From a bacterium (lineage in GTDB: Bacteria > Electryoneota > Electryoneia > Electryoneales > Electryoneaceae): DNA of 64,000 nucleotides. The position numbers were made by a program, and so were the translations under genes. Below, one piece after another: positions 14,104 through 49,818 of this stretch; the stretch's first letter is position 1, and each line of letters opens with the position of its first letter. The DNA is taken from contig OY769902.1 of assembly GCA_963669175.1 (NCBI GenBank), forward strand, positions 5,280,001 to 5,344,000, read 5' to 3'. The notes beneath the pieces are model-generated. The model had not been told where the DNA came from. It saw nothing but the letters and a program-made list of their open reading frames with translations, and searched no databases.

Positions 14104-14192
14104 GAAGTGAAAAAAGTAGACAGTGAAAAAGGTGAAAAAAGAGGTAGCGTAACCCGGCCACCTGTGCGTCAACCGACGGATGCCTGGCCGGG
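14104..14192 (+). repeat. Stop-codon-adjacent GAAGTGAAAAAAGTAGACAGTGAAAAA repeat plus CCCGGCCA...TGCCTGGCCGGG hairpin
   Basis: 14104-14141 matches the reverse complement of 49781-49818 at 37/38 nt; a shorter copy lies at 48321-48348 (minus strand). Confidence 0.85.
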
Positions 14193-14596: not shown

Positions 14597-17500
14597 ATGC
14601 GCAACCCGGGAGGGGATTTGCGGTTTGTAGCTTTGTTCACGTTGATCATGATGGCGTTTTCTATTCATACCGGCTCGGCAGCCGAAGACGATCTATCCTA
14701 TGACCTCAACTACCTGGACCAGATGGGCATCACCATGGAACCCGGTTCAGGACGCCCTTACATCTATTCCGGGCGCGGTTCCTCCTTTTTTTACGGTTCT
14801 ACCCGCACCTTCACCGAAGAAGGGTGGATGGGTTTCCACTGGGACCGTCGCAAGCTCTGGGACGACTGGATGGTCGTGGTTGATGGCGATCCGTTGGACC
14901 GAAACCTCGCCACAGTGACAGTCTACCCGCACCAAGTCGTGTTCAACTGGCCCGAGGGGCATGAACTGAGCATCCGTCTGCTCGGCGTGAAACGTGATGA
15001 CCTGCAATTCGTCTTCTCCACCCCGAAAGTGGACGTCGAATGCAACCTGTTCCTCATGTTCCCGCAGGGTTCGGATATCCCCGAAGCAAAGCGTGAAAAA
15101 CCTCTCCGTTTCCTGCCTGTCATGGTACCAACCGGTGAGGATACGGTCGGTGTCGCTTTCGGCAGCAAGACCACGTTCTCCGTGCGACAGATTCAACCGG
15201 TGCGGAATTCCGCCCACGGTCCCGACAGTGGGCAACTGGCCGGAAAAACCATCTTTGGTATCGGCTTCCCGGTGAACCGTTTTGAGGCGACAGTCGTCTA
15301 CGGTCAAGACCCGCTCTACCTCGAACAACGTCTGACCGATCTGTACAACCACCTTGGCGTGGAATGGCAGAACCGTCAGCATTGGCTGCTGGACGAGATC
15401 AACCGTGCCGTGTTCAAATGCTCCGACGAACGTTTCACCCTTGCGGTAAACTGGGCCAAGGTTTCGCTTGCCAGGCTGTTCTTCGAGGATGAAAAGGGCG
15501 TTTTGCTCTGGGCGGGACTGCCCTGGTTCAACAACTGCTGGGGACGTGATACGTTCATTTCCCTTCCGGGGGCGTGCCTGGTGCTGGGCAAATACGATGA
15601 CGCCAAAGCGATCCTGCAACGTTTCGCCGAATGGCAGATGCGTAATCCCAACTCCCCTGACTACGGTAAAATACCCAACCTGGTCTCCGGCGGCGAGATC
15701 ATGTACAACACCGCTGACGGCACCCCCTGGTTTGTCCGTGAGGTGTTCGAATACGGCCTCTACAGCGGTGATACCGACCTGTGGCAAGCCTATCTGCAAC
15801 CGAACACAGGGGCGGTCTGGTTGGCCAATGAGGGCACCATCGCCCATCGTCTCGATCCGCTCGGGTTCGTGGTGCATGGCGACGCCGATACATGGATGGA
15901 CGCGAAGGGCATGGACGGAGCCTGGTCACCACGCGGGAATCGTGCGGTCGAAATCCAGGCGCTATGGATTACCCAGCTCGACGTATCCATCAAAATGGCC
16001 GAAGCTTTGGGTGAATCCAACCCGGTCCCCGCCGCCACGTTGGAACGCTGGAAGCAACAACTCGAACAATCTAAAACCAGTTTCCAGTCGGAGTTTGTCA
16101 AGCAGGATCCACCCGGCCTGTATGATCACCTGAACTCGGATGGCGCCCCGGACGACAAGATCCGCCCGAACCAGCTCTTCGCCATCAGCGCGGTGTCCGA
16201 TACCCTGCTCAGTGATGAGGTAGCGGAAGCGGTAGTCAACGAGGTGCGTGAACATTGCGTCTATCCCTGGGGTGTGGCCTCACTGGCGCAGAATGATCCC
16301 GACTTCCACCCCTACCACCAGACCTGGCATTATCCCAAAGACGAAGCCTATCACAACGGGATCGTGTGGACCTGGCTGGCGGGACCGTTCATCACAGCCG
16401 CGGGAGGTTCGTGGCCGCTGACCGAGCAAATGGCGACGCAAATCCTCGACTGGGGCGCGCCGGGCACACTGAGCGAAAACCTGGCTGCGGTACCACGTGA
16501 TGGCAATGATCATCCTTATTGCAGTGGAACTGTATCCCAGACCTGGTCGCTGGCGGAATTCATCCGAAACCTGTACCAGGATTACCTGGGGGTGCGGCCT
16601 AGCTTTACTGAGTACGAGTTGATCGAAAAAGAGAAGATTCCAAGATGGATTTTGAATCCTCATGTACCTATAGCTTGGAATTCTGCACAGGTGTTAGTTC
16701 CTGTCAAGGATGCTTTTTTAAAAGCATCCTGTCATCGAGTAGATCAGAAACCGGTTGGATCGGTATTCTATAAATATGTGAATACTAGCGGAATTGCTAT
16801 TGAGAAGTTGGTTTTGCCTGTCAGAGCAATTCCCATTAAACCCATAATTCCAATAGACATTGGCCTCAAAAATCAATGGATGATAACGCCTACGGACGGT
16901 AATTGGGTAATGTATGATATGGGTGGTGATGAGTTATACCCCGGTTCGACCGACTTCCCCGCTAGTCCCGCCAATGAGGATATGACTTTCCTCGAGCCTC
17001 ACATCGCGCCGGACCTGAAATCGCTTGCTCCACCGGACTGGTACCTGATGTCGCAGGATGAGGTGACGGTGCAGCCACGCGCCAGCATCCCGGTCTGTTC
17101 GGTGGTGGACGAGACCAACGATGATCATGGCGGTTCCGGTTACACCTATCCCAAGGCGGCGGTGTTCAAGCCGGGCATCCTTGACCTGACTGGGTTCGTA
17201 GTGCGTGAGGATGGCCTGCGTATCTATTTCGAGCTGGATTTCGCGGCTCTGGTCAATCCCGGCTGGCACAAGGAGTACGGCTTCCAGCTCACCTACGCCA
17301 CCATTTGCATCCATTCCGGGACCAAGGGCGAAAAGACCCGTACCGACGTAGGACGCAATTCTGGCTGGAAGCTGGACAAGGATTTTGCGGCGGATCGGTT
17401 CATCTATGTAGGCGGCCCGATTGACGTGGAAGATGCGTCAGGAAAAATGCTGGCGCAGTATGTCCCTCGTGACGCGTCAGGACGTATTGGCGATGTGGAC

Positions 17501-17722
17501 CGGGGAATCATACGCTTTGGCATTCCGAGGCGCTTCCTGCCGGGTGATCCGTCACAATGGAAAATAACCGTACTGGTCGGTGGGCAGGATGATCATGGCG
17601 GCGCGGGAACCGGGGAGTTCCGTTCGGTGGACAAGGAAGCGTCCGAGTGGATCGGTGGCGGTGGTGGACCGGATAAACACAATGTCTACGACTGGCTCAT
17701 GATCGACCCTTTACAGGAATGA
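14597..17722 (+). CDS. Amylo-alpha-1,6-glucosidase (GH133-like debranching enzyme) with C-terminal glucodextranase/DOMON-like domain, signal peptide
   Basis: WAGLPWF..WGRDTFISLPG, YNTADGTPWF, TWMDA, RAVEIQALW, IRPNQL, YHNGIVWTWL and QTWSLAE motifs; C-terminal DDHGGSGYTYP...LDL. Confidence 0.88.
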   Translation: MRNPGGDLRFVALFTLIMMAFSIHTGSAAEDDLSYDLNYLDQMGITMEPGSGRPYIYSGRGSSFFYGSTRTFTEEGWMGFHWDRRKLWDDWMVVVDGDPLDRNLATVTVYPHQVVFNWPEGHELSIRLLGVKRDDLQFVFSTPKVDVECNLFLMFPQGSDIPEAKREKPLRFLPVMVPTGEDTVGVAFGSKTTFSVRQIQPVRNSAHGPDSGQLAGKTIFGIGFPVNRFEATVVYGQDPLYLEQRLTDLYNHLGVEWQNRQHWLLDEINRAVFKCSDERFTLAVNWAKVSLARLFFEDEKGVLLWAGLPWFNNCWGRDTFISLPGACLVLGKYDDAKAILQRFAEWQMRNPNSPDYGKIPNLVSGGEIMYNTADGTPWFVREVFEYGLYSGDTDLWQAYLQPNTGAVWLANEGTIAHRLDPLGFVVHGDADTWMDAKGMDGAWSPRGNRAVEIQALWITQLDVSIKMAEALGESNPVPAATLERWKQQLEQSKTSFQSEFVKQDPPGLYDHLNSDGAPDDKIRPNQLFAISAVSDTLLSDEVAEAVVNEVREHCVYPWGVASLAQNDPDFHPYHQTWHYPKDEAYHNGIVWTWLAGPFITAAGGSWPLTEQMATQILDWGAPGTLSENLAAVPRDGNDHPYCSGTVSQTWSLAEFIRNLYQDYLGVRPSFTEYELIEKEKIPRWILNPHVPIAWNSAQVLVPVKDAFLKASCHRVDQKPVGSVFYKYVNTSGIAIEKLVLPVRAIPIKPIIPIDIGLKNQWMITPTDGNWVMYDMGGDELYPGSTDFPASPANEDMTFLEPHIAPDLKSLAPPDWYLMSQDEVTVQPRASIPVCSVVDETNDDHGGSGYTYPKAAVFKPGILDLTGFVVREDGLRIYFELDFAALVNPGWHKEYGFQLTYATICIHSGTKGEKTRTDVGRNSGWKLDKDFAADRFIYVGGPIDVEDASGKMLAQYVPRDASGRIGDVDRGIIRFGIPRRFLPGDPSQWKITVLVGGQDDHGGAGTGEFRSVDKEASEWIGGGGGPDKHNVYDWLMIDPLQE

Positions 17723-18381
17723 TTCACAAGATGTACAGGATGAACTGATAATTAACAGGATGATAGGATAGTAGGATTTCAAGGATGAAAGATATTAGGG
17801 TAAAGAAAGTAGAAAAGGTAAAGACAGCAACAAATTGACAGAACTCAAATGAAAGCTATATTTATTGACACAATTCCTAATTGCTAATTAATTGAAACTG
17901 ATTCCTAATTACTAATTTGAAAGTATTAATTCCTAATTTCTAATTCTTAATTACTATAGCGGTTATCGAAAGTTTCTGCTGATTGAATAGCCGTCAGCCT
18001 GCTTCAGCAGGCTCCTCTTAGCACCCGGCTTTAGCCGGGTGAAGGGAGATATTCGAAGATATGAGCGAGCTTTAGCGTGCTTGCATGTGGCAAAGAATAC
18101 AAATCAGGAAAGCAACCTGAAGGGCGCTCGATATGTTTGATTTCTGCTACCCCCGGCTGAAGCCGGGGGCTAAGAGGAGCAGGCTAAAGCCTGCTAAACT
18201 TACAAGTTGGTAGTGTGTTAGTGGTTTCCAGAGGATTACGATTCAAGATAGCTACTGCCGTGGAACTGTTGCATTGTTATAATCACTCAGCCCTATCAAC
18301 CTGAAACAGCAAGAACCTCCAAGAAGTACTATAATTAAAGAATTTATCCTTGATATCCTTCTATCCTATTATCCTGTGAGT
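17720..18381 (+). repeat. Junction cassette A (CAGGAT left arm / ATCCTG right arm) containing a REP-like doublet
   Basis: Left ACAGGATGATAGGATAGTAGGATTTCAAGGATGAA is complementary to right TTTATCCTTGATATCCTTCTATCCTATTATCCTGT; also (TTCCTAA)-type heptamers. Confidence 0.85.
17996..18195. repeat. REP/REPIN-like inverted doublet
   Basis: 17996-18041 AGCCTGCTTCAGCAGGCTCCTCTTAGCACCCGGCTTTAGCCGGGTG and inverted partner 18150-18195, each with two small hairpins. Confidence 0.75.
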
Positions 18382-18411
18382 CAAGTTGTTGAAAGTGAGA
18401 GGAATTCGGGA

Positions 18412-20637
18412 ATGCAGAGATCATTGTTTGGAATTCTTGTGTCTTTGTTGCTACTCGCGGGGTGCAGCAAAGCGCCGGTACCATACATGGACAACGGTGA
18501 GGTGGTATTCAGCTACCGTTCTGCGTCGGCGAAGACTGTCGCTTTGGCGGGAGCGTTCAACGGCTGGTCGGACAGCGCCACACCCATGACTCGCAACGAT
18601 ACCGGTCTCTGGACCGCACGTGTCGGGCTGTCGGTCGGCTACCATGAGTACCGTTTTGTGGTTGACGGCAACTGGATCGCCGACCCTGTCAATCCGGCGA
18701 CCGTGATCAACAACTACGGCGAGCCGAACAGCGTTCTCTATGTCACCCCCACCGCGACCGTCGAGCTGAAAGCCCCGAAAACCGGATCGGACGGCCTGGT
18801 CGAGATGCCCGGCGGAGAAGGTTTCCTCTATGTCAACCTGATCTGGCACCAGCATCAGCCCAACTATTACGACGCCGAAAAGGATCAGCTTATCGCGCCG
18901 TGGGTACGCACCCATACCACCAAGGATTATTACGACATGACCGCGATGCTGAAAGAGCATCCGGATATCCATGTGACCGTGAACCTGACCCCGGTTCTGA
19001 TTGAACAGATTGACCTCTACACCGACCGCCTGGGTGAGTTTTATTCCAGCAAACGTAAACGCCTTGACGCCGACAAATTCCTCGCGAAATACAAGGGCCA
19101 CACCGACCCCTGGATTGACCTGATGTTAACCGATACGGAGGAGTTCGGCCCGGAAGAGGATCAGTACCTGGCACGTAACGAGTGGTCCTGCTTCAGTGTG
19201 GCCCGCACCATCATGAACCGTTTCCCGGAATATGTGGCGTTACGGGAAAAAGACCCCGAAGATTTTACCGTGCAGGACAAGCGTGACCTGAAATGTTTCT
19301 TCTGGCTGGCGCTCTTCGACCCGGATTTCCTGCGTGGCCCGGTGCAGTTGTCGGAAAGCACCACGGTGGATTTGAGCGATTTGGTCACCGAGGGGCCGGG
19401 GGAAAGCTGGACTGTGGGACGTCACTTCTCTGAAGATGATGCGCTTCGACTGGTGTCGGACTTCTACCTGATCGCCTATCGTTTGAAATACCTCCACAAG
19501 GAGATGATGTACAACCCGGCCAGGCATACCGGTCAGGTTGAGATGATTACCACACCCTTCGCGCACCCGATTCTGCCGTTGATCTATGACCTGCACGCCG
19601 GGAAAAGCCCGAACGACCAGGCTCCGGACAGTGTACAGTTCTCCCGGCCGCATGACGCGCAGTGGCATGTCACCCAGGCCAACCAGAACTATTTCGACTG
19701 GTACGGCACCTATCCCAGGGGGATGTGGCCTGCCGAGGGTTCGGTTTCCGCGGATGTGCTCAAGTTGTTTACCCATGCGAATATAGAATGGATTGCTACC
19801 GGCGATGGCGTATTAGCCAAGTCGTTGCCGGAAGGGTTAAAGGCCACTACCCCGTACAAGTTGAAAGACGGTGAAGGCGGTGAAATCGCGATCTTCTTCC
19901 GTGATACCCATCTGTCCGACCTGATCGGGTTCCGTTACCAGCGCTGGAGCCCGGAGCAGGCCTCGGAAGACCTGATTCGTCAGATTCTGGCCCGCGCCCC
20001 GGAAGCGAAAACTGATACGGCCTGCATCACCATCCTGCTGGATGGCGAAAACGCCTGGGAATGGTACGAGCAGGACGCTGACGCTAAGCAGTTCCTGAAC
20101 CAGGTATACACCAAGCTGGCGGAAAAGCAGAACGAAGGACGTCTACTAACGGTCACCCCCATCGAATACCTTGAAGGCAACCCGGAGCGTGGGGTTCCTC
20201 CCCACCCAATTGCGAATCTTCCCGAAATTGAATCCCTCTGGCCGGGATCGTGGATTTATGGGGATTTCAGTACGTGGGTAGGGGAAGATGAAGAGAATCG
20301 TGCCTGGTGGTGGCTAAACAAGGTGCGCCAGGATTACGCTGCCGCGACTGAAGGCTTGTCCCGACAGGAAGAACTGGCCCATGATGACGCCCTGCGGGCG
20401 GCGTGGGCCGCCATGGCCGCAGCGGAAGGGTCCGACTGGTTCTGGTGGTATGGCACCGATCAGAACACCGGGGAAGGGGATTCGCGTTGGGATCAGCTTT
20501 ATCGCGCGCATCTTGAAAGTGTTTATCGTATCTTGCAGGACGATGGCATCGAGATTGAAATGCCCGAGATACCGTCACTTATGGATACCGGGTCTGACGC
20601 GAGTAGTGAAGGCGGGGCGATGGCCCGCGGGGAGTAG
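18412..20637 (+). CDS. GH57 amylopullulanase-like lipoprotein with N-terminal CBM48/AMPK-type domain
   Basis: Lipobox LLAGC; LAGAFNGW..YRFVVDGNW; GH57 motifs WHQHQP, TTPFAHPILP, GMWPAEG, LDGENAWE and AEGSDWFWW. Confidence 0.9.
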   Translation: MQRSLFGILVSLLLLAGCSKAPVPYMDNGEVVFSYRSASAKTVALAGAFNGWSDSATPMTRNDTGLWTARVGLSVGYHEYRFVVDGNWIADPVNPATVINNYGEPNSVLYVTPTATVELKAPKTGSDGLVEMPGGEGFLYVNLIWHQHQPNYYDAEKDQLIAPWVRTHTTKDYYDMTAMLKEHPDIHVTVNLTPVLIEQIDLYTDRLGEFYSSKRKRLDADKFLAKYKGHTDPWIDLMLTDTEEFGPEEDQYLARNEWSCFSVARTIMNRFPEYVALREKDPEDFTVQDKRDLKCFFWLALFDPDFLRGPVQLSESTTVDLSDLVTEGPGESWTVGRHFSEDDALRLVSDFYLIAYRLKYLHKEMMYNPARHTGQVEMITTPFAHPILPLIYDLHAGKSPNDQAPDSVQFSRPHDAQWHVTQANQNYFDWYGTYPRGMWPAEGSVSADVLKLFTHANIEWIATGDGVLAKSLPEGLKATTPYKLKDGEGGEIAIFFRDTHLSDLIGFRYQRWSPEQASEDLIRQILARAPEAKTDTACITILLDGENAWEWYEQDADAKQFLNQVYTKLAEKQNEGRLLTVTPIEYLEGNPERGVPPHPIANLPEIESLWPGSWIYGDFSTWVGEDEENRAWWWLNKVRQDYAAATEGLSRQEELAHDDALRAAWAAMAAAEGSDWFWWYGTDQNTGEGDSRWDQLYRAHLESVYRILQDDGIEIEMPEIPSLMDTGSDASSEGGAMARGE

Positions 20638-20962
20638 TTCGATTCACAATTCGATTCACAAGATGGACAGGATGAAAACACAATTAACAGGATGGATTTT
20701 ATTGTATTTACAGGATGCAAAGGATGATTAGGATATCAAGGATGAAAGAAGCAAATAAGGCAAAAAAGATAAAGGAAATAGAAAAAGCGAAAAAAATTCT
20801 TTTTAGATCTAATAACATCTTAATTTGTTAATAAAATTCCTAATTTCTAATTCCTAATTATTAATTAAGCTGTTATCCTTAATATCCTATCATCCTATTA
20901 TCCTGTGAGTTAAAAAGAATCATCCTGAATATTTTAGTTATATCTTGTATATCCTGTAAATC
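20638..20962 (+). repeat. Junction cassette B
   Basis: GATTCACAAGATGGACAGGATG...GATATCAAGGATGAAA left arm; TTCCTAATTTCTAATTCCTAA; right arm TTATCCTTAATATCCTATCATCCTATTATCCTGTGAGT...ATCTTGTATATCCTGTAAATC. Confidence 0.85.
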
Positions 20963-20981
20963 CCAGCGTGAGGGGAAAACG

Positions 20982-23201
20982 ATGCGGATTTGGATCGCAT
21001 GTTTGTTACTGGTCAGTATCCTGGTCAGTCCGGGGTTCAGCGAGGAGATGAACATCTCCTTCTGGCATCAGCTCAACTATGCCGAGCGGGTGGTGCTGGA
21101 TGAGCTGATCGAGGAATACGAGGCGACACATTCGGGGATCACGGTCACTCCGATTTACCGTGAGACGGAAGAACTGCGTTCCGCGTACCAGAACTCAGCG
21201 CTTGCGGGCACCGGGCCGGAACTGGTGCATGGCCCCTCGGACCAGATCGGTCCCTTTGCCACCATGAGCATTGTACGTCCGATGGAGACCCTCCTGTCCC
21301 AGGCCGAGCTGGACCGCTTAAACCCGCAGGCGCTGGTCTGGTTCAAGGGCGAGCACGACAGCACCGAACATCTCTACCAGGTCGCGGACCGCCTGGGCAA
21401 TCACCTCACCCTGATCTACAACAAGAAGTACATCACTGAACCACCAACGACCACCGACGACCTGATCAGGATCGGGCAAGAGCAGACAGTTGATATCAAC
21501 GGCGACGGTAAAATCGACCGTTTCGGCCTGGTCTGGAACTTCACCGAACCCTATTTCTTCATTCCCTGGCTGTCTGGGTTCGGCGGCTGGGTGATGGATG
21601 ATGAATACCGTCCTACGCTCGATACCGAAGCCAATCGCAACGCCCTGCAATTCATCATTGACCTGCGTGACAAGTACAAAATCACCCCGCAAAACGCCGA
21701 CTACGAAACCGCGCACAACCTGTTCCTGGAAGAGATGTCGACCATGATCATCAATGGCGACTGGTCCTGGGGCACGTATATCGATAACGGTATCGACATC
21801 GGGGTGGCACGCATCCCGATGGTATCCGAAACCGGGCTGTGGGCCGCGCCGATGGTATCGCCACGCGGGTACAGCATCAATGTGAACATCGAAGAGGCCA
21901 AGCTCGAACCGACACTGGAACTGCTGCGATTCTTCCTGAGCGATGAAGCCCAGCTAAGGATGGCGTTGGCGACCAACATCACCCCCACCAGCAAGACGGT
22001 ATTCGACACGCCGGAACTACAGGCCAACCCGATCATGCAGGCCAGCCTGAGCGAGATCGAGGTTTGCAAACCAATGCCGGTCGCCCCGGAACTGCGTGCG
22101 ATCTGGGACTCCATGCGTCCCTTTTACCAGGCCGCGCTCGGGGGCACCTCCACCGCTGCCGAATCTGCTGCGGGGATGCAGAAAGAAGCGATACGCAAAA
22201 TCCGTGAGATGAACGAGATCACCCAACCGGCCGCCTATGTCGTGATCATGAAGATCTTCGTGTTGTTGGCGCTGGTGGTGGGGATCTGGTTCACACGTTC
22301 AAGCTGGGCAGAGCTGATTCGTGACCTGCGCAAACGTCCGTTCATCTACTGGATGGTCATGCCGGCGTTCATTGTCATCGTGTTGGTGGTGGTTTATCCG
22401 TTTATCTATAACGTAATCCTGTCCGTCTCGAACATGGGCCTGCGGAACTTCGCCAACTGGGAAATAGTCGGCTTGCAGAATTACGGGCAGGTATTCCTTC
22501 ACCCGGATTTTTATACGGTCCTGTTCAAGACGATTGTCTGGACTGTGGTCAATGTGGGATTTCATGTGATCCTGGGCGTGTTCCTGGCCCTGCTGATGAA
22601 CCGTGTCCTGCCGGGCAAAGGCGTGATTCGTACCCTGCTGATCCTGCCCTGGGCGGTGCCGCAGTACATCACCGCGCTGACCTGGCGTGGGATGTTCAAC
22701 CAGGAATACGGCGCGGTGAACCTGATCATCGCCAAGTACCTGCACATGCCGATTGTCAACTGGCTGGGGTCGCCCTTTGAAGCGTTCCTCGCCTGTATCA
22801 TCACCAATGTCTGGCTGGGCTTCCCCTTCATGATGATCGTGGCGCTGGGCGGGTTGCAGTCGATTCCGTACCAGTTGTACGAAGCGGCGGACATTGACGG
22901 CGGCGGATGGTACACCAAGCTGACCAAGATCACGCTACCCCTGCTCAAACCGGTGATGACCCCGGCGATGGTGCTGGGCATGGTCTGGACCTTCAACCAG
23001 CTCAATGTTATCTGGCTGGTATCGAACGCGGGCGAGCCCTCGGACAAGACGCATATCCTGGTGTCGTTCGTATATAAGAGCGCTTTTAACCTGTACCGGT
23101 ATTCCTATGCCGCTGCGATGAGCATGGTGATCTTTGGTATCCTGCTGGCGTTCGGGATCTTCTTTATCAAACGGTCCAAAGCGACTGAAGCGGTTTACTA
23201 G
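20982..23201 (+). CDS. Fused maltodextrin-binding protein (MalE-like) and ABC permease (MalF-like)
   Basis: Signal peptide and SBP_bac_1-like region (LIYNKK, MIINGDWSW), then TM helices with LPWAVP and the EAA motif LYEAADIDG. Confidence 0.9.
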   Translation: MRIWIACLLLVSILVSPGFSEEMNISFWHQLNYAERVVLDELIEEYEATHSGITVTPIYRETEELRSAYQNSALAGTGPELVHGPSDQIGPFATMSIVRPMETLLSQAELDRLNPQALVWFKGEHDSTEHLYQVADRLGNHLTLIYNKKYITEPPTTTDDLIRIGQEQTVDINGDGKIDRFGLVWNFTEPYFFIPWLSGFGGWVMDDEYRPTLDTEANRNALQFIIDLRDKYKITPQNADYETAHNLFLEEMSTMIINGDWSWGTYIDNGIDIGVARIPMVSETGLWAAPMVSPRGYSINVNIEEAKLEPTLELLRFFLSDEAQLRMALATNITPTSKTVFDTPELQANPIMQASLSEIEVCKPMPVAPELRAIWDSMRPFYQAALGGTSTAAESAAGMQKEAIRKIREMNEITQPAAYVVIMKIFVLLALVVGIWFTRSSWAELIRDLRKRPFIYWMVMPAFIVIVLVVVYPFIYNVILSVSNMGLRNFANWEIVGLQNYGQVFLHPDFYTVLFKTIVWTVVNVGFHVILGVFLALLMNRVLPGKGVIRTLLILPWAVPQYITALTWRGMFNQEYGAVNLIIAKYLHMPIVNWLGSPFEAFLACIITNVWLGFPFMMIVALGGLQSIPYQLYEAADIDGGGWYTKLTKITLPLLKPVMTPAMVLGMVWTFNQLNVIWLVSNAGEPSDKTHILVSFVYKSAFNLYRYSYAAAMSMVIFGILLAFGIFFIKRSKATEAVY

Positions 23202-24318
23202 GCAGAATTCACAGGATGAACAGGATAAAAAACAATTAACAGGATGATAGGATAGAAGGATATCAAGGATGAAATTTAATATTGACAAAAGCACAAAAAA
23301 CAGCATTAGAGATATAATCGACAATAGCGACAAGTCACTAATGAAATATTATCTACCTTTATATAACTGTATAATTAGATCATTTGAATATAATTTTTCA
23401 CAAGGAAAAGATATAGAGAAAACAAGGATATTAACAATATTCTTTTCTCAAGTGTTAAATATTTTACCTGGATTATTAACATCAATCAACAATAGATACA
23501 TTTACGCATCAAATATATTCGTAAGATTATTACAAGAACGAATGTATGAAGGTAGATATATTATTCTAGTTGATAATGCATATTATGATTTTATGCTTAT
23601 AGAGTGGATGCAAAGAGCATATTTATATAAATCGAATCGACAATATGTAAGTTGGTTATATGGATCTGATAAAGGAACAGAACACATATTTACTCAGCAG
23701 GAAATAGATGCCAGTAATAAAAAAATAGAAAAGGCTTTATTAAATGATGGCCTGACTTACTTGAGAAATCACCCAGAGATCAGCAATGACACTATTAGTT
23801 CTATAAATCAATATCATGATCTACTTTGTCATCCAAAGATAAAGGAAATGAAAAGTTCATGGTATAAATCTCGCAAGAGAAATATCAACAACTTTGATGA
23901 TTTAAAAAGTTTTGTTATCAAGAATTTAGAGAATGATAAAATTATGTTTAGCGAATATGCTTTTGATTTTCCAGGAAACAGAGAAAAATCCAGTGCTGTC
24001 ATACACAGTAGCTGGTATAGATTAAACCACATGATTAATATTAATTATAGAGATGACTATAACGATGTTATAGAATTTGTAATAGACAATAACGAAGATG
24101 AGTCTTTAAAGATATTAAAAAATTGTCTTATTTACATTTATGGTATCTACAGGAATATGATAAACTATATCCCGACAAAAAAAATGAATATCGAAATTGA
24201 TAAAAATATTACTGATATATACGGTGTTAATATTACCAAGAATTCTTAACTTTCTATTATTTTATTATCTTGTTAATCATGTATTTATCTTGTATATCTT
24301 GTTAATCCTTGTGAGTAA
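23202..24318 (+). repeat. Junction cassette C carrying an AT-rich cargo gene
   Basis: Left arm ATTCACAGGATGAACAGGAT...AACAGGATGATAGGATAGAAGGATATCAAGGATGAAA; right arm TTATCTTGTTAATC...ATCTTGTATATCTTGTTAATCCTTGTGAGT. Confidence 0.8.
23269..24249 (+). CDS. AT-rich hypothetical protein (helical; possibly DUF5677-like)
   Basis: 326-codon ORF at about 25% GC (30/120 counted at 23281-23400). VRLLQE..YII and SSAVIH segments recall DUF5677-type proteins; family call is tentative. Confidence 0.7.
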   Translation: MKFNIDKSTKNSIRDIIDNSDKSLMKYYLPLYNCIIRSFEYNFSQGKDIEKTRILTIFFSQVLNILPGLLTSINNRYIYASNIFVRLLQERMYEGRYIILVDNAYYDFMLIEWMQRAYLYKSNRQYVSWLYGSDKGTEHIFTQQEIDASNKKIEKALLNDGLTYLRNHPEISNDTISSINQYHDLLCHPKIKEMKSSWYKSRKRNINNFDDLKSFVIKNLENDKIMFSEYAFDFPGNREKSSAVIHSSWYRLNHMININYRDDYNDVIEFVIDNNEDESLKILKNCLIYIYGIYRNMINYIPTKKMNIEIDKNITDIYGVNITKNS

Positions 24319-24335
24319 AGTTGCAGGAGTGATAG

Positions 24336-25169
24336 ATGCAGAAAGACAAGCTGTGGGTTCGGGTGATCATATACGCGATCCTGTTCGTGTTCATCGTGAT
24401 ATCGGTGTACCCGGTGATCCGTGTGCTCTCGATTTCGCTACGTCCGGGCGACCGTCTGTTGAGCACCTCGCTGGCGATCATCCCCGATGACGCGACCCTG
24501 TCGAATTTCGTGGTGCTGTTCACCGAACGTCCGTTCCTGCGTTGGGTGTGGAACAGTACGCTCGTCACCACTGCTGTAACCCTTCTCGGGGTGGCGTTGG
24601 CGTCCACCAGCGGCTACATCATGAGCCGGTATAAGTTCGTTGGACGCACGGCCGCGATGACCGCGATCCTCACCACGCAGATGTTCCCTGCGACCATGCT
24701 GCTGCTGCCGATGTACATCATTATCAGCAAGATGGGCCTGCTGAACAGCTATATCGGGCTCATTGTGGTGTACAGCGCAACCGCTCTGCCCTTCTGTGTC
24801 TGGACCATGAAAGGGTATTACGATACCATCCCCTATTCGCTGGAAGAAGCGGCGATGATTGACGGCTGCAATCGTTTTGAATCGTTTTACAAGGTCGTGC
24901 TGCCGCTGGTCAGCCCGGCGCTGGTAATTACCGGCCTGTTCAGCTTCATCTCGAGCTGGTCGGAATACCTGGTCGCGGCTCAGATCCTGCAGGACCCGAA
25001 GATGTATACGCTCCCCATCGGGCTGAAGCAGTTCCAGCAGAACATGAGCACCGACTGGGGGCTGTACTCGGCGGGGGCGCTGGTGGTGTCCATCCCGGTG
25101 ATCGTCCTGTTCATGATCGCGAATAGATGGCTGGTTAGTGGACTTACTCTCGGTGGAGTTAAGGAATGA
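24336..25169 (+). CDS. malG: Maltose/maltodextrin ABC permease (MalG-like)
   Basis: TQMFPA, KGYYDTIP, EAA motif LEEAAMIDG, WSEY and TLPIGL; ends SGLTLGGVKE. Confidence 0.88.
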   Translation: MQKDKLWVRVIIYAILFVFIVISVYPVIRVLSISLRPGDRLLSTSLAIIPDDATLSNFVVLFTERPFLRWVWNSTLVTTAVTLLGVALASTSGYIMSRYKFVGRTAAMTAILTTQMFPATMLLLPMYIIISKMGLLNSYIGLIVVYSATALPFCVWTMKGYYDTIPYSLEEAAMIDGCNRFESFYKVVLPLVSPALVITGLFSFISSWSEYLVAAQILQDPKMYTLPIGLKQFQQNMSTDWGLYSAGALVVSIPVIVLFMIANRWLVSGLTLGGVKE

Positions 25170-25468
25170 TTCACAAGATGAACAGGATAAAATAACAGGA
25201 TGAACAAGATTTGACTCACAGGATGGTAAGATAGAAGGATATCAAGGATGAAAGAAGTAAAAAAGGTAAAAAACGTAAAGAAGGTAAAGAAAGCCAGGAT
25301 AATATCTAAAAATATTCTTGAGAAATATAACTCCTTATTTCTAATTTCTAATTCCTAATTCCTAATTCCTAATTAAGAAGTTATCCTTATCATCCTATTA
25401 TCCTATCATCCTGTCAGAAGGTAGTTTATCTTGTTAATCAGCAGTTAATCCTGTATATCCTGTAAATC
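25167..25468 (+). repeat. Junction cassette D
   Basis: TGATTCACAAGATGAACAGGAT (overlaps the malG stop)...ACTCACAGGATGGTAAGATAGAAGGATATCAAGGATGAAA; (TTCCTAA)x3; right arm ending ATCCTGTATATCCTGTAAATC before the RBS. Confidence 0.85.
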
Positions 25469-25481
25469 GAGAGAGGTGAGA

Positions 25482-26120
25482 GTGGGAAAGAAGTTGTGTC
25501 CGAAGGTGATTCTTGAGGGAACACGGTTGACATTCAAGACCGAGATTGCTTTTGCCCTCAACGAGCACCCTCGTGTGGTCGGCCCCAAGAAATACCGTTA
25601 TCACAGCCCGGTAATTTCTGCGGAATGGTGCGGGTTCACCAATTTCCCGTGGGGACGTGGCCCGATCAACTTCGATCCCGAGACCGAAGAAGCGCGAGCG
25701 ATGGACGTCTACCGTACCTGGGCGCACCTGATCGAGCTGCAACGTTATTATTCGTGGATCGTTGACCGTTTCCATATCTCGACCAGGCTTTACCAGCGTC
25801 ACGTGCACGGCAAGGAATATGATTTCGGCTGGCTGGAAGAACGTCTGCACAACCTCGGCTTTCACCTGGTCGTCTGCCATCGTTCTTCGGATTCGTTCAA
25901 GGCCGCACGCAAGGAACGGTTGAAAGTATCGGGCAAACCATCTCAGTACGATAACTTGCAGGCGTTTATCGACGAGCAGAGCGAATACATTGAAGAGGGG
26001 CGGAAATCCCTGTTGCCCTGCCTGGAACTGGATGTGTCGGACAATTCGGTTGCGAACGCTGCGGACCGTATCGCAGACTGGCTGGGGCAAAATGGCGGCC
26101 TGTACGCGAAAGAGCCATGA
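25482..26120 (+). CDS. Hypothetical protein, nucleoside-monophosphate-kinase-like fold with degenerate P-loop
   Basis: KVILEGTRLTFKT (Walker A-like, F in place of G) and IVDRFHIS (DR motif as in thymidylate kinases). GTG start after GAGAGG; alternative start 25476. Confidence 0.6.
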   Translation: MGKKLCPKVILEGTRLTFKTEIAFALNEHPRVVGPKKYRYHSPVISAEWCGFTNFPWGRGPINFDPETEEARAMDVYRTWAHLIELQRYYSWIVDRFHISTRLYQRHVHGKEYDFGWLEERLHNLGFHLVVCHRSSDSFKAARKERLKVSGKPSQYDNLQAFIDEQSEYIEEGRKSLLPCLELDVSDNSVANAADRIADWLGQNGGLYAKEP

Positions 26121-26355
26121 TTTTTTCTCACAGGATACTAGGATATAAAGATATCAAGGATAAAGAATTATATTTAAGCTTAAAAGAAATATGTTCATAC
26201 TGTAATATATCTATCAACTATTAATTCTTAATTCTTAATTCTTAATTTATTTTCATCATCCTTTTATCCTAATATCCTGTTAGGCAATAGTAGTTAAGTG
26301 TGGCGACAGCCGAGAATAGAGTGTATCTTTCACAATCCTGTACATCCTGTAAACC
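26118..26355 (+). repeat. Junction cassette E
   Basis: TCACAGGATACTAGGATATAAAGATATCAAGGATAAA; (TTCTTAA)x3; CATCCTTTTATCCTAATATCCTGT; ATCCTGTACATCCTGTAAACC. Confidence 0.8.
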
Positions 26356-26381
26356 GGATGTTTGAACTTGCGGAGAGAACG

Positions 26382-27449
26382 ATGGCAGAAGTAATCCTGG
26401 ACAAAGTGAACAAGATTTACCCGGGCGATGTGCATGCGGTAACCGATAACTCGATCCACATCAAGGACAAGGAATTTGTCGTATTGGTCGGGCCATCCGG
26501 ATGCGGCAAGTCGACAACCCTGCGTATGATCGCCGGGCTGGAAGAGATCAGCAGTGGCACGGTTTCCATTGACGGCCGTGTGGTCAATGATGTCCCCCCG
26601 AAAGACCGTGATATCGCGATGGTCTTCCAGAACTACGCCCTCTATCCGCATATGGACGTCCGTACCAACATGGCCTTCGGGCTGAAGTTGCGGAAGTTCC
26701 CCAAGGATGAAATCGACCAGCGTGTCAATGAAGCGGCCGAGATTCTCGAACTGACTCCTCTGTTGGATCGGAAGCCGAAAGCGCTGTCCGGCGGTCAACG
26801 TCAGCGTGTGGCCCTGGGACGCGCCATTGTCCGTAAGCCGAAAGTCTTCCTCTTCGACGAACCCTTGTCCAACCTCGACGCCAAGCTGCGAAACCAGATG
26901 CGCGCCGAGATCGCCAAGCTGCACCAGAAGCTTGAAACCACGATGATTTACGTGACCCATGACCAGGTCGAAGCGATGACCATGGGAACGAAGATTGTAG
27001 TCATGAAGGACGGCATTATTCAGCAGGTCGATGCGCCGTTGGACATCTACAACAAACCGGTCAACAAGTTCGTGGCCGGATTCATCGGCTCACCAACCAT
27101 GAATTTTGTTGAAGGCACAGTCACCAACAAGACCTTCACCGCCGGACAACTGACAGTTCCTTTGGACAACTATCCAAGCTCTATTCCAAATAGTATCATC
27201 ATTCTTGGCGTTCGTCCGGAAGACCTGAACTGGGATGAAGCGCCGGGTAACGGCACCCTTACATCCATTGTAGACCTTGATGAGCCCATGGGCAGCGAAA
27301 CCCATCTGCACTTGCTGGATGGTGACACCAAATATGTTGCGAGCATAAAACCTGACGCACCCTATACAATCGGCAAAGCAGTCACTTTGCATATCGACCC
27401 GGTGAAAGTGCATTTCTTTGACCCGGTCACTCAAAAAGCGATTCGCTGA
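26382..27449 (+). CDS. malK: Sugar ABC transporter ATP-binding protein (MalK/UgpC family)
   Basis: GPSGCGKST, VFQNYALYPH, LSGGQRQR, FDEPLSNLD and YVTHDQ motifs; start after GGAGAG. Confidence 0.92.
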   Translation: MAEVILDKVNKIYPGDVHAVTDNSIHIKDKEFVVLVGPSGCGKSTTLRMIAGLEEISSGTVSIDGRVVNDVPPKDRDIAMVFQNYALYPHMDVRTNMAFGLKLRKFPKDEIDQRVNEAAEILELTPLLDRKPKALSGGQRQRVALGRAIVRKPKVFLFDEPLSNLDAKLRNQMRAEIAKLHQKLETTMIYVTHDQVEAMTMGTKIVVMKDGIIQQVDAPLDIYNKPVNKFVAGFIGSPTMNFVEGTVTNKTFTAGQLTVPLDNYPSSIPNSIIILGVRPEDLNWDEAPGNGTLTSIVDLDEPMGSETHLHLLDGDTKYVASIKPDAPYTIGKAVTLHIDPVKVHFFDPVTQKAIR

Positions 27450-49577: not shown

Positions 49578-49818
49578 AATTAAGAATTAAAAATTAACAA
49601 TTAATAATTGAACACCGTGATATTCTCATCCTCATAGAAAAAAGTTTGAAGTATGATCTGCGTTTTCATTACGCTTGGCCCGACTGCTTGCTGTCGGGAT
49701 TTATATTTTCAGGATTATGTTCCATCCGGCCAATTGTATCCAAACCACTTGTGGTTCCCCGGCCAGGCATGGCCGGGCTACTTTTTTCACTTTTTTCACT
49801 GTCTACTTTTTTCACTTC
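49578..49818 (-). repeat. bshB1-bshA junction element (GTGAAAAAA arm, CCCGGCCA hairpin, TAATTCT heptamers)
   Basis: Minus strand begins GAAGTGAAAAAAGTAGACAGTG... just after the stop and ends TTAATTGTTAATTTTTAATTCTTAATT just before the RBS. Confidence 0.75.

What the first reader, a model, noticed from the sequence alone, without database searches (positions are those of the whole stretch)
17720..26355. Five consecutive operon junctions each filled by a modular self-complementary cassette running from stop codon to next RBS
Seen: at 17720, 20638, 23202, 25167 and 26118 the spacer starts at or within a few nt of the stop (twice as GGAA-TGA-TTCACAAGATG). Each has roughly 9-nt-period CAGGAT/AGGAT repeats with a conserved core close to ACAGGATRRTAGGATAGAAGGATATCAAGGATRAA. 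A variable AT-rich interior follows, then (TTCCTAA/TTCTTAA)n heptamers (reduced in C), then complementary ATCCT arms ending just before the next RBS. All share the operon's orientation, and the ~60% GC host genes are intact. Interiors vary: near-empty, a REP doublet, or a 1 kb gene. Inference: a cassette or intervening-sequence system that folds out of (or is excised from) the mRNA and provides insertion slots in conserved operons. From memory, similar arms flank GxxExxY and four-helix-bundle genes in other genomes; no such gene and no mobilising enzyme is in this window.
Basis: partly seen in the sequence, partly recalled or inferred. Interest (0 to 1): 0.88.

Follow-up and report, generated by a model that had tools for sequence, protein, structure and literature searches.

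The report
Repeat-armed cassettes between operon genes
The five AT-rich spacers are copies of a genome-wide family of hairpin-armed inserts that sit between a stop codon and the next ribosome-binding site; the same kind of arms flanks a small uncharacterised nuclease gene in this and many other bacteria, which points to an undescribed cassette system.

Summary
Five consecutive junctions of a glucan/maltodextrin operon hold 27-40% GC inserts bounded by inverted arms. Each arm has about four 9-nt units with an invariant AGGAT core.

The family is genome-wide: 166 arm hits, 156 of them between genes, in 101 gaps. The arms start a median 24 nt after a stop codon.

The genome's only GxxExxY gene (PDDEXK_3) lies between nuoH and nuoI and is flanked by exactly these arms. 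It models as a Cas4/RecB-like nuclease with the D-ExK-QxxxY residues invariant.

GxxExxY genes elsewhere carry the same architecture, in this phylum and in 70 of 78 loci from many phyla. The arm core tracks the nuclease tree. Each genome's dispersed gene-less arms match the arms of its own nuclease gene. Four-helix-bundle genes have analogous arms with a 7-nt period.

Within this genome the two arms of an element do not covary at variable positions, and interiors are old and unrelated.

Best reading: these are non-autonomous members of a nuclease-associated cassette family, logically like REPIN-RAYT. The mRNA fold-out is plausible but untested. I found no description in print.

The parts
17723..18384 (+). 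Element A. Outer 9-nt units at 17721-17745 overlap the TGA stop. 5' arm 17752-17788. Heptamer array 17872-17956. Inserted 200-nt palindromic repeat 17996-18195. 3' arm 18344-18381. The host RBS and ATG 18412 follow.
20638..20963 (+). Element B. 12-nt duplication TTCGATTCACAA x2 directly after the TAG stop. 5' units up to 20748 (arm hit 20707-20745). Heptamers 20835-20866. 3' inner arm 20873-20910. 3' outer units 20919-20963. Then RBS and ATG 20982.
23202..24320 (+). Element C. 5' units 23208-23273 (arm hit 23236-23272). The cargo ORF starts at the ATG inside the last unit. Degenerate 3' units (ATCTT core) 24265-24320. Then RBS and ATG 24336.
23269..24249 (+). Cargo ORF of 326 aa at 27% GC. No Pfam or NCBIfam match and no relative among 5.8 billion proteins at that tool's sensitivity. 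Language-model features lie nearest DUF5677 clusters (a lead only). Absent at this junction in G001 and in the metagenome relative X3.
25168..25468 (+). Element D. Units start inside the TGA stop. 5' arm 25214-25251. GTAAAAAAG 9-mers 25257-25293. Heptamers 25328-25374. 3' inner arm 25381-25417. 3' outer units 25426-25468. Then RBS and GTG 25476.
26121..26356 (+). Element E. 5' arm 26127-26163. Heptamers 26221-26247. 3' arm 26257-26284. 3' outer units 26334-26356. Then RBS and ATG 26382.
14104..14140 (+). Sixth junction, one gene upstream. A single array of GTGAAAAAA-type 9-mers lies directly after the TAG stop of the 1319-aa gene, with no AGGAT arm.
49578..49817 (.). A further element without AGGAT arms. 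A heptamer array (AATTAAA type) at one end and CTTTTTTCA 9-mers at the other.
14597..27449 (+). Host operon, all genes intact. Amylo-alpha-1,6-glucosidase (GDE_C), GH57 with CBM48, MalE-MalF fusion, MalG-like permease, a 214-aa protein with no family, and a MalK-like ATPase.

Best explanation
The five spacers are gene-less members (A, B, D, E) and one cargo-bearing member (C) of a family of cassette-like intergenic elements.

Each element is bounded by two inverted arms. Each arm is a short array of three or four tandem 9-nt units with an invariant AGGAT core, and further degenerate units lie outside it.

In this genome the only gene that goes with these arms in other genomes too is a single GxxExxY gene between nuoH and nuoI. 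It belongs to PDDEXK_3 and models as a minimal Cas4/RecB-like nuclease.

Shown:
- GxxExxY genes are flanked by such arms across this phylum and in many other phyla.
- The repeated core follows the nuclease phylogeny.
- The gene-less arms scattered through a genome carry the core of that genome's own nuclease gene.

Inferred:
- The nuclease reads the repeated core on DNA, probably as an oligomer with one subunit per unit.
- Its cutting either moves the arm-bounded cassettes or drives repair-mediated copying between arms, which keeps arms uniform while interiors drift.
- The ~100 gene-less copies are non-autonomous passengers, in the way REPINs depend on a single-copy RAYT.
- Elements persist only where they do little harm. 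That is between a stop codon and the next RBS or at gene 3' ends, where the arms can pair in the transcript and loop the insert out.
For: Genome-wide family, almost all intergenic:
- 166 arm hits at E<0.01. 156 lie in 101 gaps; the other 10 sit at the edges of crude ORF calls.
- Gap types differ from background: 64 co-directional, 31 convergent and 6 divergent, against 1633, 393 and 417 for all gaps (chi-square p 1.8e-5).
- The median distance from stop codon to arm is 24 nt for 84 arms.

The nuclease gene:
- The single GxxExxY gene (E 4e-41) is flanked exactly by arm hits at 3093164 and 3093645.
- In 36 of 36 aligned proteins G, E, Y, D71, E81, K83, Q95 and Y99 are invariant.
- The model has pLDDT 94.5. 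The best fold matches are Cas4 SSO0001 (E 6e-5), MGME1 and lambda exonuclease.

The same architecture elsewhere:
- The nuoH-nuoI junction in 14 relatives: 5 hold GxxExxY between such arms, 3 hold gene-less arms with other cores (CGGAT, CGAAT and one less clear), and 6 are short and empty.
- 12 of 12 further family loci show such arms, and about 18 of 20 phylum loci.
- 70 of 78 loci from many phyla share at least 5 inverted 7-mers between their flanks, against 23 of 78 for mismatched pairs. The ACAGGAT, CACAGAT and CACGGAT cores recur there.

Core follows the protein:
- In a tree of 38 proteins, the deep split (98/96) separates cores ending AG (16 of 16) from cores ending AT or AA (22 of 22).
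- The motif labels need 19 changes against a shuffled mean of 28.7; 0 of 200 shuffles are as low.

Dispersed arrays match the resident gene (16 genomes, three units at 9-nt spacing):
- AGGAT: 142, 95, 34, 23 and 22 in the five genomes whose GxxExxY has AGGAT arms, 16 in G007, and at most 1 in the other ten.
- CGGAT: 39 in G005, at most 3 elsewhere.
- CGGAA: 26, 20 and 10 in G014, G013 and G011, at most 3 elsewhere.
- The reversed-pattern control gave 0-2.

Period goes with the protein family:
- GxxExxY flanks have mode 9 (36 of the 57 flanks with a repeat).
- Four-helix-bundle flanks have mode 7 (35 of 53).
Against: - No nuclease activity, DNA binding or movement has been shown.
- No target-site duplication was seen by eye.
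- No near-identical whole elements lie at different loci in this genome, so there is no sign of recent transposition.
- Many junctions are occupied in both species of the genus and in two species of another genus. That fits long residence as well as mobility.
- Linkage of gene and arms could reflect co-inheritance of a cassette whose arms work without the protein.
- G015 has arm arrays but no GxxExxY was found (86% complete).
- G013's gene has CGAAA arms, while its most common dispersed array is CGGAA.
- G007 has 16 AGGAT arrays, but its intact gene has GCAAAG arms.
- Related genomes are not independent samples.
- Four-helix-bundle genes, which are not nucleases, have the same architecture. 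The arms may therefore serve something common to both families.
Confidence: 0.5

Rival explanations
1. RNA-level insulator or processing hairpins. The arms are kept because they pair in the polycistronic mRNA. Pairing loops the insert out, brings the stop codon and the next RBS together, or gives a double-strand RNase such as RNase III a site that releases stable flanking cistrons. GxxExxY and four-helix-bundle genes would then be passengers.
For: - The elements run exactly from stop codon to RBS.
- Predicted long hairpins have z -4.2 and -7.3.
- In co-directional gaps there are 60 sense arms against 37 antisense arms (p 0.025).
- Arms are conserved while interiors drift, and orthologous junctions stay occupied.
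- Both arms change together between genera.
- Four-helix-bundle genes were first named after 23S rRNA intervening sequences (passages). That such sequences are cut out by RNase III is recalled, not tested.
Against: - The arms of one element are no more complementary at variable columns than arms of different elements: 0.33 against 0.48 in 14 pairs, and 5000 of 5000 shuffles reach the observed value.
- In 11 of 14 elements the two ends differ (CTCAC against TAAC).
- 43 of 64 co-directional gaps have an arm hit of one polarity only.
- The same core recurs with the nuclease across phyla. Selection for pairing alone does not predict that.
- No RNA data exist.
Confidence: 0.25
2. Ordinary MITEs or REPs mobilised by a classical transposase: a DDE enzyme, or one of the ten Y1/RAYT-like genes of this genome.
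For: - High copy number, inverted ends and intergenic location.
- The genome holds ten Y1_Tnp genes and several true MITE-like families.
Against: - 9 of 10 Y1 genes have no arm hit within 3 kb. The tenth has an element 0.8 kb downstream behind another gene.
- Copies do not share whole-length homology, unlike the 335-bp MITE with about 85 copies at 85-97% identity.
- No duplication of flanking bases was seen.
- The arms are tandem arrays, not a single palindrome.
Confidence: 0.08
3. Integron-like cassettes or invertible switches. The arms would be recombination sites for a tyrosine recombinase that inserts, excises or flips the interior.
For: - Cargo genes are promoterless and co-oriented with the operon.
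- Two four-helix-bundle cassettes lie in tandem at 898-899 kb.
- The interior of junction D is inverted between the two species.
- Some ends read GCTTAAC / GTTAGGC, which resembles the attC core sites as I recall them.
- The genome has ten Phage_integrase matches.
Against: - The elements are dispersed singly over about 100 loci, not arrayed next to an integrase.
- Many ends read CTCAC / GTGAG instead.
- The isolate's own contigs showed no mixed orientation that could be told apart from other genomic copies.
- Inversion between 35-nt inverted repeats needs no dedicated enzyme.
Confidence: 0.07

Closest known systems
REPIN-RAYT systems (REP doublets with a single-copy Y1 tyrosine transposase)
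   Same: A small enzyme gene, single-copy or low-copy, is flanked by the same short palindromic repeats that occur tens to hundreds of times without a gene in intergenic regions. Those copies lie mostly at gene 3' ends. Each lineage has its own repeat. Inheritance is long and vertical. For the REPIN side I saw only search listings and abstract starts (PMC3116915, PMC3337134, 10.1101/2021.07.10.451892).
   Different: The enzyme is a PD-(D/E)XK Cas4/RecB-like nuclease, not an HUH/Y1 protein. The arms are arrays of 3-4 tandem 9-nt units rather than one 20-40-nt palindrome. Elements carry cargo (ORFs, other repeats). They fill the stop-to-RBS spacer inside operons.
Co-transcribed hairpin MITEs (Correia/NEMIS of Neisseria, ERIC of enterobacteria), recalled and not looked up here
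   Same: Inverted-repeat elements lie inside transcription units, fold in the mRNA, and are said to be cut by RNase III or to alter mRNA stability.
   Different: Those families have whole-length homologous copies and target duplications, and no linked protein family. Here only the arms are conserved.
Integron gene cassettes with attC sites (recalled)
   Same: Promoterless cargo is co-oriented with host transcription. Each cassette is bounded by an imperfect palindrome whose structure is conserved more than its sequence. Arrays occur occasionally.
   Different: No integrase or attI platform is adjacent. Cassettes are scattered through housekeeping operons. The arms are tandem arrays.
23S rRNA intervening sequences encoding four-helix-bundle (23S_rRNA_IVP) proteins
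   Same: The same protein family is cargo. The insert sits in a transcribed, essential locus and is bounded by complementary ends. The family is functionally uncharacterised and encoded within rRNA insertions (passages of 10.1101/2024.02.27.582315).
   Different: Here the host site is an mRNA spacer, not an rRNA helix. The elements in the window carry no such gene. Excision at the RNA level is untested.
Foldback-type transposons with internally repetitive terminal inverted repeats (eukaryotic; abstract start of PMC3573991)
   Same: The terminal inverted repeats are built from short tandem repeats.
   Different: Those elements are eukaryotic and kilobase-scale and have a P-element-type transposase. 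The resemblance is one of form only.

Membership tests
GxxExxY-associated repeat-armed cassettes (defined here; not a published family) | Inverted arms made of at least 3 tandem 8-10-nt units with a conserved 5-7-nt core | tested here: met
   for the five window elements. for the period: 9 nt is the mode in GxxExxY flanks.
GxxExxY-associated repeat-armed cassettes (defined here; not a published family) | The same core flanks the resident GxxExxY gene of the genome | tested here: met
   Arm hits at 3093164-3093200 (+) and 3093608-3093645 (-) bracket the gene at 3093208-3093603.
GxxExxY-associated repeat-armed cassettes (defined here; not a published family) | Dependence of the gene-less copies on the nuclease | not testable with these tools
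   Only co-occurrence is shown.
REP / REPIN-RAYT | A Y1 (RAYT) gene flanked by the repeat | tested here: not met
   Of 10 Y1_Tnp genes, none is directly flanked by AGGAT arms.
REP / REPIN-RAYT | A single 20-40-nt imperfect palindrome with a conserved 5' tetranucleotide (GTAG/CGTC; abstract start of PMC3733652) | tested here: not met
   The arms are tandem 9-nt arrays starting CTCAC or TTAAC.
MITE of a DDE transposon | Whole-length homologous copies | tested here: not met
   Interiors share only heptamer and 9-mer arrays.
MITE of a DDE transposon | Target-site duplication | tested here: inconclusive
   None was seen by eye. No clean empty/filled pair was available.
Integron cassette / attC | Adjacent integron integrase and cassette array | tested here: not met
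   Elements are dispersed over 101 gaps, and none of the ten recombinase matches lies in the finding.
Any Rfam family | Match at gathering score | tested here: not met
   The window and 16 further loci gave only two tRNAs and an FMN riboswitch.
CsrA-titrating GGA-repeat RNA | CsrA encoded in the genome | tested here: not met
   No PF02599 match in a 95.9%-complete single-contig genome.
rRNA intervening sequence | Insertion in an rRNA helix and excision by a double-strand RNase | tested here: not met
   The location is between protein genes. Excision is not testable.

The most novel reading that the evidence does not exclude
GxxExxY nucleases and four-helix-bundle (23S_rRNA_IVP/Avd-like) proteins may each be the trans-acting partner of a very widespread, undescribed class of bacterial cassette elements. 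The ends of these elements are inverted arrays of short tandem repeats, with a 9-nt period for the nuclease and a 7-nt period for the helical-bundle protein. The period would reflect one protein subunit per unit. Cutting at the arms would drive copying between loci, which explains three things: why arms stay uniform within a genome, why they change in concert between lineages, and why they spread into the stop-to-RBS spacers of core operons and, in other taxa, into rRNA.
Probability: 0.3. Interest if true: 0.88.

Novelty: new variant of a known kind. Interest (0 to 1): 0.78.

Why it matters
GxxExxY/PDDEXK_3 and the four-helix-bundle '23S rRNA intervening sequence' proteins are common in many phyla, and neither has a known function. 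PDDEXK_3 is listed as 'Unknown' in the superfamily survey (passage). [quoted passage not shown]

Tying them to a defined, sequence-specific DNA architecture gives both families a testable role. It would also add a second enzyme class to the REPIN-RAYT type of long-lived intragenomic replicator.

The elements show how an insert can live inside essential operons without breaking them. They also explain part of the assembly fragmentation of relatives: the sister genome breaks at these junctions.

For annotation, they account for the small AT-rich 'hypothetical' ORFs and odd spacers in otherwise conserved operons.

Tried and rejected
- CsrA sponge idea. The units resemble the CAGGAUG repeats of CsrB as I recall them, but no CsrA gene is present.
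- RAYT link. None of the 10 Y1 genes is flanked by the arms.
- Rfam. No family matched.
- Expression. No RNA holder is listed among 4 runs, so cleavage, excision and circular RNA could not be examined.
- Orientation switching. Contigs of the isolate's own runs laid on the stretch gave 'opposite strands' joints that cannot be told from other genomic copies of the arms. This is no evidence either way.
- Target duplications. None was seen by eye.
- Recent transposition. All-against-all comparison of 101 gaps with arms masked found only other repeat families (335-bp, about 480-bp and about 320-bp) and low-complexity arrays.
- Structures by sequence. There were no PDB hits for GxxExxY or for the 326-aa cargo.
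- The 326-aa cargo. No Pfam or NCBIfam match and no relatives. There is only a language-model lead to DUF5677.
A 6-row alignment was used instead.
- Supplements of papers were not consulted.
- I left locus L044 (G013) out of the junction print by oversight.
Full report
WHAT IS IN THE WINDOW

The stretch 14597-27449 is one co-directional operon. It encodes an amylo-alpha-1,6-glucosidase, a GH57 enzyme with CBM48, a MalE-MalF fusion, a MalG-like permease, a 214-aa protein without family, and a MalK-like ATPase.

The flanking genes are 53-57% GC.

Each junction has the same layout:
- It starts at or within a few bases of the stop codon with degenerate 9-nt units (CACAAGATG, ACAGGATGA).
- A well-conserved arm of four units follows, with consensus ACTCACAGGATAATAGGATAAAAGGATATCAAGGATAA (from 81 copies).
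- An AT-rich interior comes next, often holding GTAAAAAAG-type 9-mers and then TTCCTAA-type heptamers.
- The reverse complement of the arm and of the outer units ends just before the next RBS.

As RNA, D and B fold into one long hairpin from stop codon to RBS, with z -4.2 and -7.3 and 0 of 100 shuffles as good.

The interiors differ. E is nearly empty. A carries a 200-nt palindromic doublet that belongs to a separate repeat family of about 90 copies. C carries a 326-aa ORF that starts at the ATG of the last arm unit.

THE FAMILY IN THE GENOME

The window lies at 5,280,001-5,344,000 of a single 5.45-Mb contig with 50% GC.

A profile built from nine arms and iterated once finds 228 hits, 166 of them at E<0.01. 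I compared these with a crude gene set of my own: 3409 ORFs chosen by codon usage, covering 83% of the genome. By that set, 156 of the 166 hits lie in 101 intergenic gaps. The other 10 sit at the edges of over-extended ORFs.

Arms always point inward. Where an arm adjoins a gene's 3' end (84 arms), it starts a median 24 nt after the stop, with quartiles 12 and 55.

Gap types are skewed: 64 co-directional, 31 convergent and 6 divergent, against 1633, 393 and 417 for all gaps longer than 20 nt (p 1.8e-5). In co-directional gaps, 60 arm hits have AGGAT on the mRNA strand and 37 do not (p 0.025).

The orientation of the interior is not fixed. Besides the five window elements, four other loci agree with transcription and two do not.

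THE ARMS ARE ARRAYS OF A MOTIF, NOT CO-EVOLVING STEMS

I examined 14 elements with two full-length ungapped arms.
- The two arms of one element agree at the 12 variable columns in 33% of cases.
- Arms of different elements agree in 48%.
- All 5000 shuffles reach the observed value.
- In 11 of 14 elements one end reads CTCAC and the other TAAC.

So inside this genome only the AGGAT cores and their spacing are kept. Small elements at different loci share no near-identical interiors. This contrasts with a 335-bp MITE present in about 85 copies at 85-97% identity.

RELATIVES

The strict 35-nt arm pattern occurs 87 times here and 52 times in the one other species of the genus (G001). It does not occur in 29 further genomes of the family and phylum, and the reversed control gives 0.

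In G001 the orthologous junctions compare as follows:
- Junction C holds a 187-nt element without the 1-kb ORF.
- Junction D holds an element whose interior is inverted relative to this genome.
- Junction E does not exist, because synteny differs.

A metagenome relative (X3, roughly 92% identical) also lacks the 1-kb ORF, and at junction A it lacks about 420 nt (tables 2 and 8).

A second syntenic block was compared, 380-392 kb here against G001 contig 1. Three arm-bearing junctions of that block are occupied in both species. Their interiors differ, and array copy numbers change even between two tandem duplicates within G001.

THE LINKED GENE

The genome has one GxxExxY gene (TIGR04256 E 4e-41; PF13366 E 1e-40). 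It lies between nuoH and nuoI, co-oriented with them, and is bracketed by arm hits at 3093164-3093200 and 3093608-3093645. The next junction, nuoI-nuoJ, holds an empty 143-nt element.

I printed the same nuoH-nuoI junction in 14 of 15 other genomes of the family (L044 was left out by oversight):
- Five genomes from four genera hold a GxxExxY gene between inverted arms with an ACAGGAT core, or an AAGAT core in one.
- Three hold gene-less elements with other cores (CGGAT, CGAAT and one less clear).
- Six are short and lack such repeats.

Twelve further GxxExxY loci of the family all have arms of three tandem 8-10-nt units, in inverted orientation on the two sides. The cores include CACAGAG, CACAGAT, CGCAAAG, CACGGAT, CACGGAA and CACGAAA. 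About 18 of 20 loci from other families of the phylum show the same.

A scan of one genome per species found 590 relatives. I examined the flanks of the best 78 with enough sequence. These come from Chloroflexota, Spirochaetota, Verrucomicrobiota, Acidobacteriota, Bacteroidota, Planctomycetota, several proteobacterial classes, Patescibacteria and others.
- Upstream and downstream flanks share at least 5 inverted 7-mers in 70 of 78 loci (median 13.5).
- For mismatched pairs the figure is 23 of 78 (median 3).
- By eye, the cores in 14 of 16 printed loci are again ACAGGAT, CACAGAT, CACGGAT or CACGAAT.

CORE, PROTEIN AND DISPERSED COPIES GO TOGETHER

A maximum-likelihood tree of 38 proteins splits with 98/96 support into two clades.
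- In one clade the arms end in AG (16 of 16).
- In the other they end in AT or AA (22 of 22).
- Several motif groups unite hosts of different families.
- The labels need 19 changes against a shuffled mean of 28.7 (0 of 200 shuffles as low).

I then counted three units at 9-nt spacing in the 16 genomes of the family.
- AGGAT: 142, 95, 34, 23 and 22 in the five genomes whose GxxExxY has AGGAT arms, 16 in G007, and at most 1 in the other ten.
- CGGAT: 39 in G005, whose gene has CGGAT arms, and at most 3 elsewhere.
- CGGAA: 26, 20 and 10 in three species of one genus, whose genes have CGGAA or CGAAA arms, and at most 3 elsewhere.
- The reversed controls gave 0-2.

There are exceptions:
- G007 has AGGAT arrays, but its intact gene has GCAAAG arms.
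- G013's gene has CGAAA arms, not CGGAA arms.
- G015 has arrays, but no gene was found in an 86%-complete assembly.

In that other genus the elements are nested in the same way as here, with outer CGGAA arms and inner CGAAA arms. They sit at orthologous sites in two species, with interiors 68-90% alike.

THE PROTEIN

In an alignment of 36 proteins, G29, E32, Y35, D71, E81, K83, Q95, Y99, N112 and F113 are invariant. These include the D...ExK and QxxxY motifs that I recall as typical of RecB/Cas4-type nucleases.

The AlphaFold model has pLDDT 94.5. Its best Foldseek matches are the Cas4 protein SSO0001 (E 6e-5, TM 0.55-0.59 on the query), MGME1, a second Cas4 and lambda exonuclease. No chain in the PDB matches by sequence.

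The only statement on function that I found in print is 'Unknown', in a superfamily survey (passage).

FOUR-HELIX-BUNDLE GENES

This genome has three such genes.
- One is flanked by inverted GTAAAGAAG-type 9-mers.
- One is flanked by direct CTTTTTTCA arrays, next to a decayed copy of the gene.
- One is flanked by inverted heptamer arrays.

Across the phylum, 53 of 54 flanks of 27 such genes carry a tandem repeat. The period is 7 in 35, 8 in 12 and 9 in 6.

For GxxExxY, 57 of 76 flanks carry one. The period is 9 in 36, 8 in 13 and 10 in 6. Among random gene flanks of this genome, 128 of 600 carry one, with no preferred period.

The heptamers and GTAAAAAAG arrays inside window elements A, B, D and E are therefore the arm types of the second cassette family. 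They are nested inside AGGAT arms. They also occur alone at window 14104-14140 and 49578-49817.

READING

Shown:
- A modular, arm-bounded cassette family fills stop-to-RBS spacers and gene 3' ends.
- It is specifically and widely associated with a predicted nuclease family.
- The arm core follows the protein tree and is lineage-specific.
- The arm core matches between the nuclease gene and the gene-less copies of the same genome.

Inferred: the nuclease reads the repeated core on DNA and either moves the cassettes or keeps the arms uniform by break-induced copying. The gene-less copies in the window would be its non-autonomous dependants.

The pattern favours a sequence-specific reader that travels with the cassette over simple selection for RNA pairing. 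That pattern is uniform cores, free spacers, drifting interiors, and concerted change of all units in both arms between lineages.

RNA pairing may still explain why such inserts are tolerated inside operons.

The closest known logic is REPIN-RAYT (listings and abstract starts only). The defining features of that family, and those of MITEs, integron cassettes, rRNA intervening sequences and Rfam families, were tested and not met (see Membership tests).

Four full-text searches found no description of these arms. They searched for GxxExxY, PDDEXK_3, PF13366, TIGR04256, TIGR02436, PF05635, '23S rRNA intervening sequence protein', and combinations with tandem or inverted repeats. Subscription journals and supplements were not searchable.

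Noticed in passing
genome 703800-704135 and about 85 other places (for example inside the gaps at 555629, 558374, 982166, 2333433, 5068143): A classic 335-bp MITE with terminal inverted repeats (CTCACAAGAATTTGTGCAT...), about 85 copies at 85-97% identity. At least 15 copies lie in gaps that also hold AGGAT arms, often directly beside an arm.
   Followed up: partly
window 17996-18195: The 'REP doublet' in element A belongs to a separate palindromic repeat family of about 200 nt. A search gave 134 BLAST pieces, including full-length copies at 80-86% identity. The genome also has ten Y1_Tnp (RAYT/IS200-like) genes that might go with it.
   Followed up: partly
genome 14100-23000 (locus L026): Three tandem paralogues of about 750 aa with a T9SS C-terminal sorting domain lie on the minus strand. 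Single AGGAT arms recur at 14720, 17382, 20119 and 22710, about 55 nt after a stop codon, with a period of about 2.66 kb.
   Followed up: partly
genome 2208224-2209291: An AGGAT-armed element whose interior is a 135-bp unit repeated six times in tandem. Each unit contains its own four AGGAT-type units and a GC-rich hairpin.
   Followed up: no
genome 2671790-2671965: About ten tandem copies of a 17-nt unit (TTGAGACGCGATTATCY), followed by three GC-rich hairpins, lie directly upstream of a Y1_Tnp gene (2672107-2672560).
   Followed up: no
locus L036 (G001 contig C206), 1-425: In the sister species the nuoI-nuoJ junction is an array of at least eight 50-nt units, each one AGGAT arm plus GAAAGACGAAAACMTC, all in one orientation, running to the contig end. 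Contigs C34 (266-nt period) and C19 (96-nt period) hold similar arrays.
   Followed up: no
G001 contig C1 78250-79630, against genome 382230-382740: A gene of about 50 codons for a hydrophobic peptide is flanked by elements on both sides in both species. In G001 the gene plus its element is tandemly duplicated. The two copies differ in the number of 9-mer units (5 against 2) and heptamer units (about 5 against about 17), which shows fast array dynamics.
   Followed up: partly
genome 896665-899510: Two intact four-helix-bundle genes and one decayed copy lie in successive junctions, each followed by the same CTTTTTTCA array. The arrangement looks like a small cassette array.
   Followed up: partly
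window 25476-26120: The 214-aa operon gene between MalG and MalK has no Pfam or NCBIfam match. It is conserved at 81% DNA identity in the sister species at the same place.
   Followed up: no
loci L211-L223 (G014, G013): In another genus the arms are nearly identical, spacers included, at many loci and in two species (AACCACGGAATACACGGAATAAACGGAA). They are much more uniform than the AGGAT arms of this genome.
   Followed up: partly
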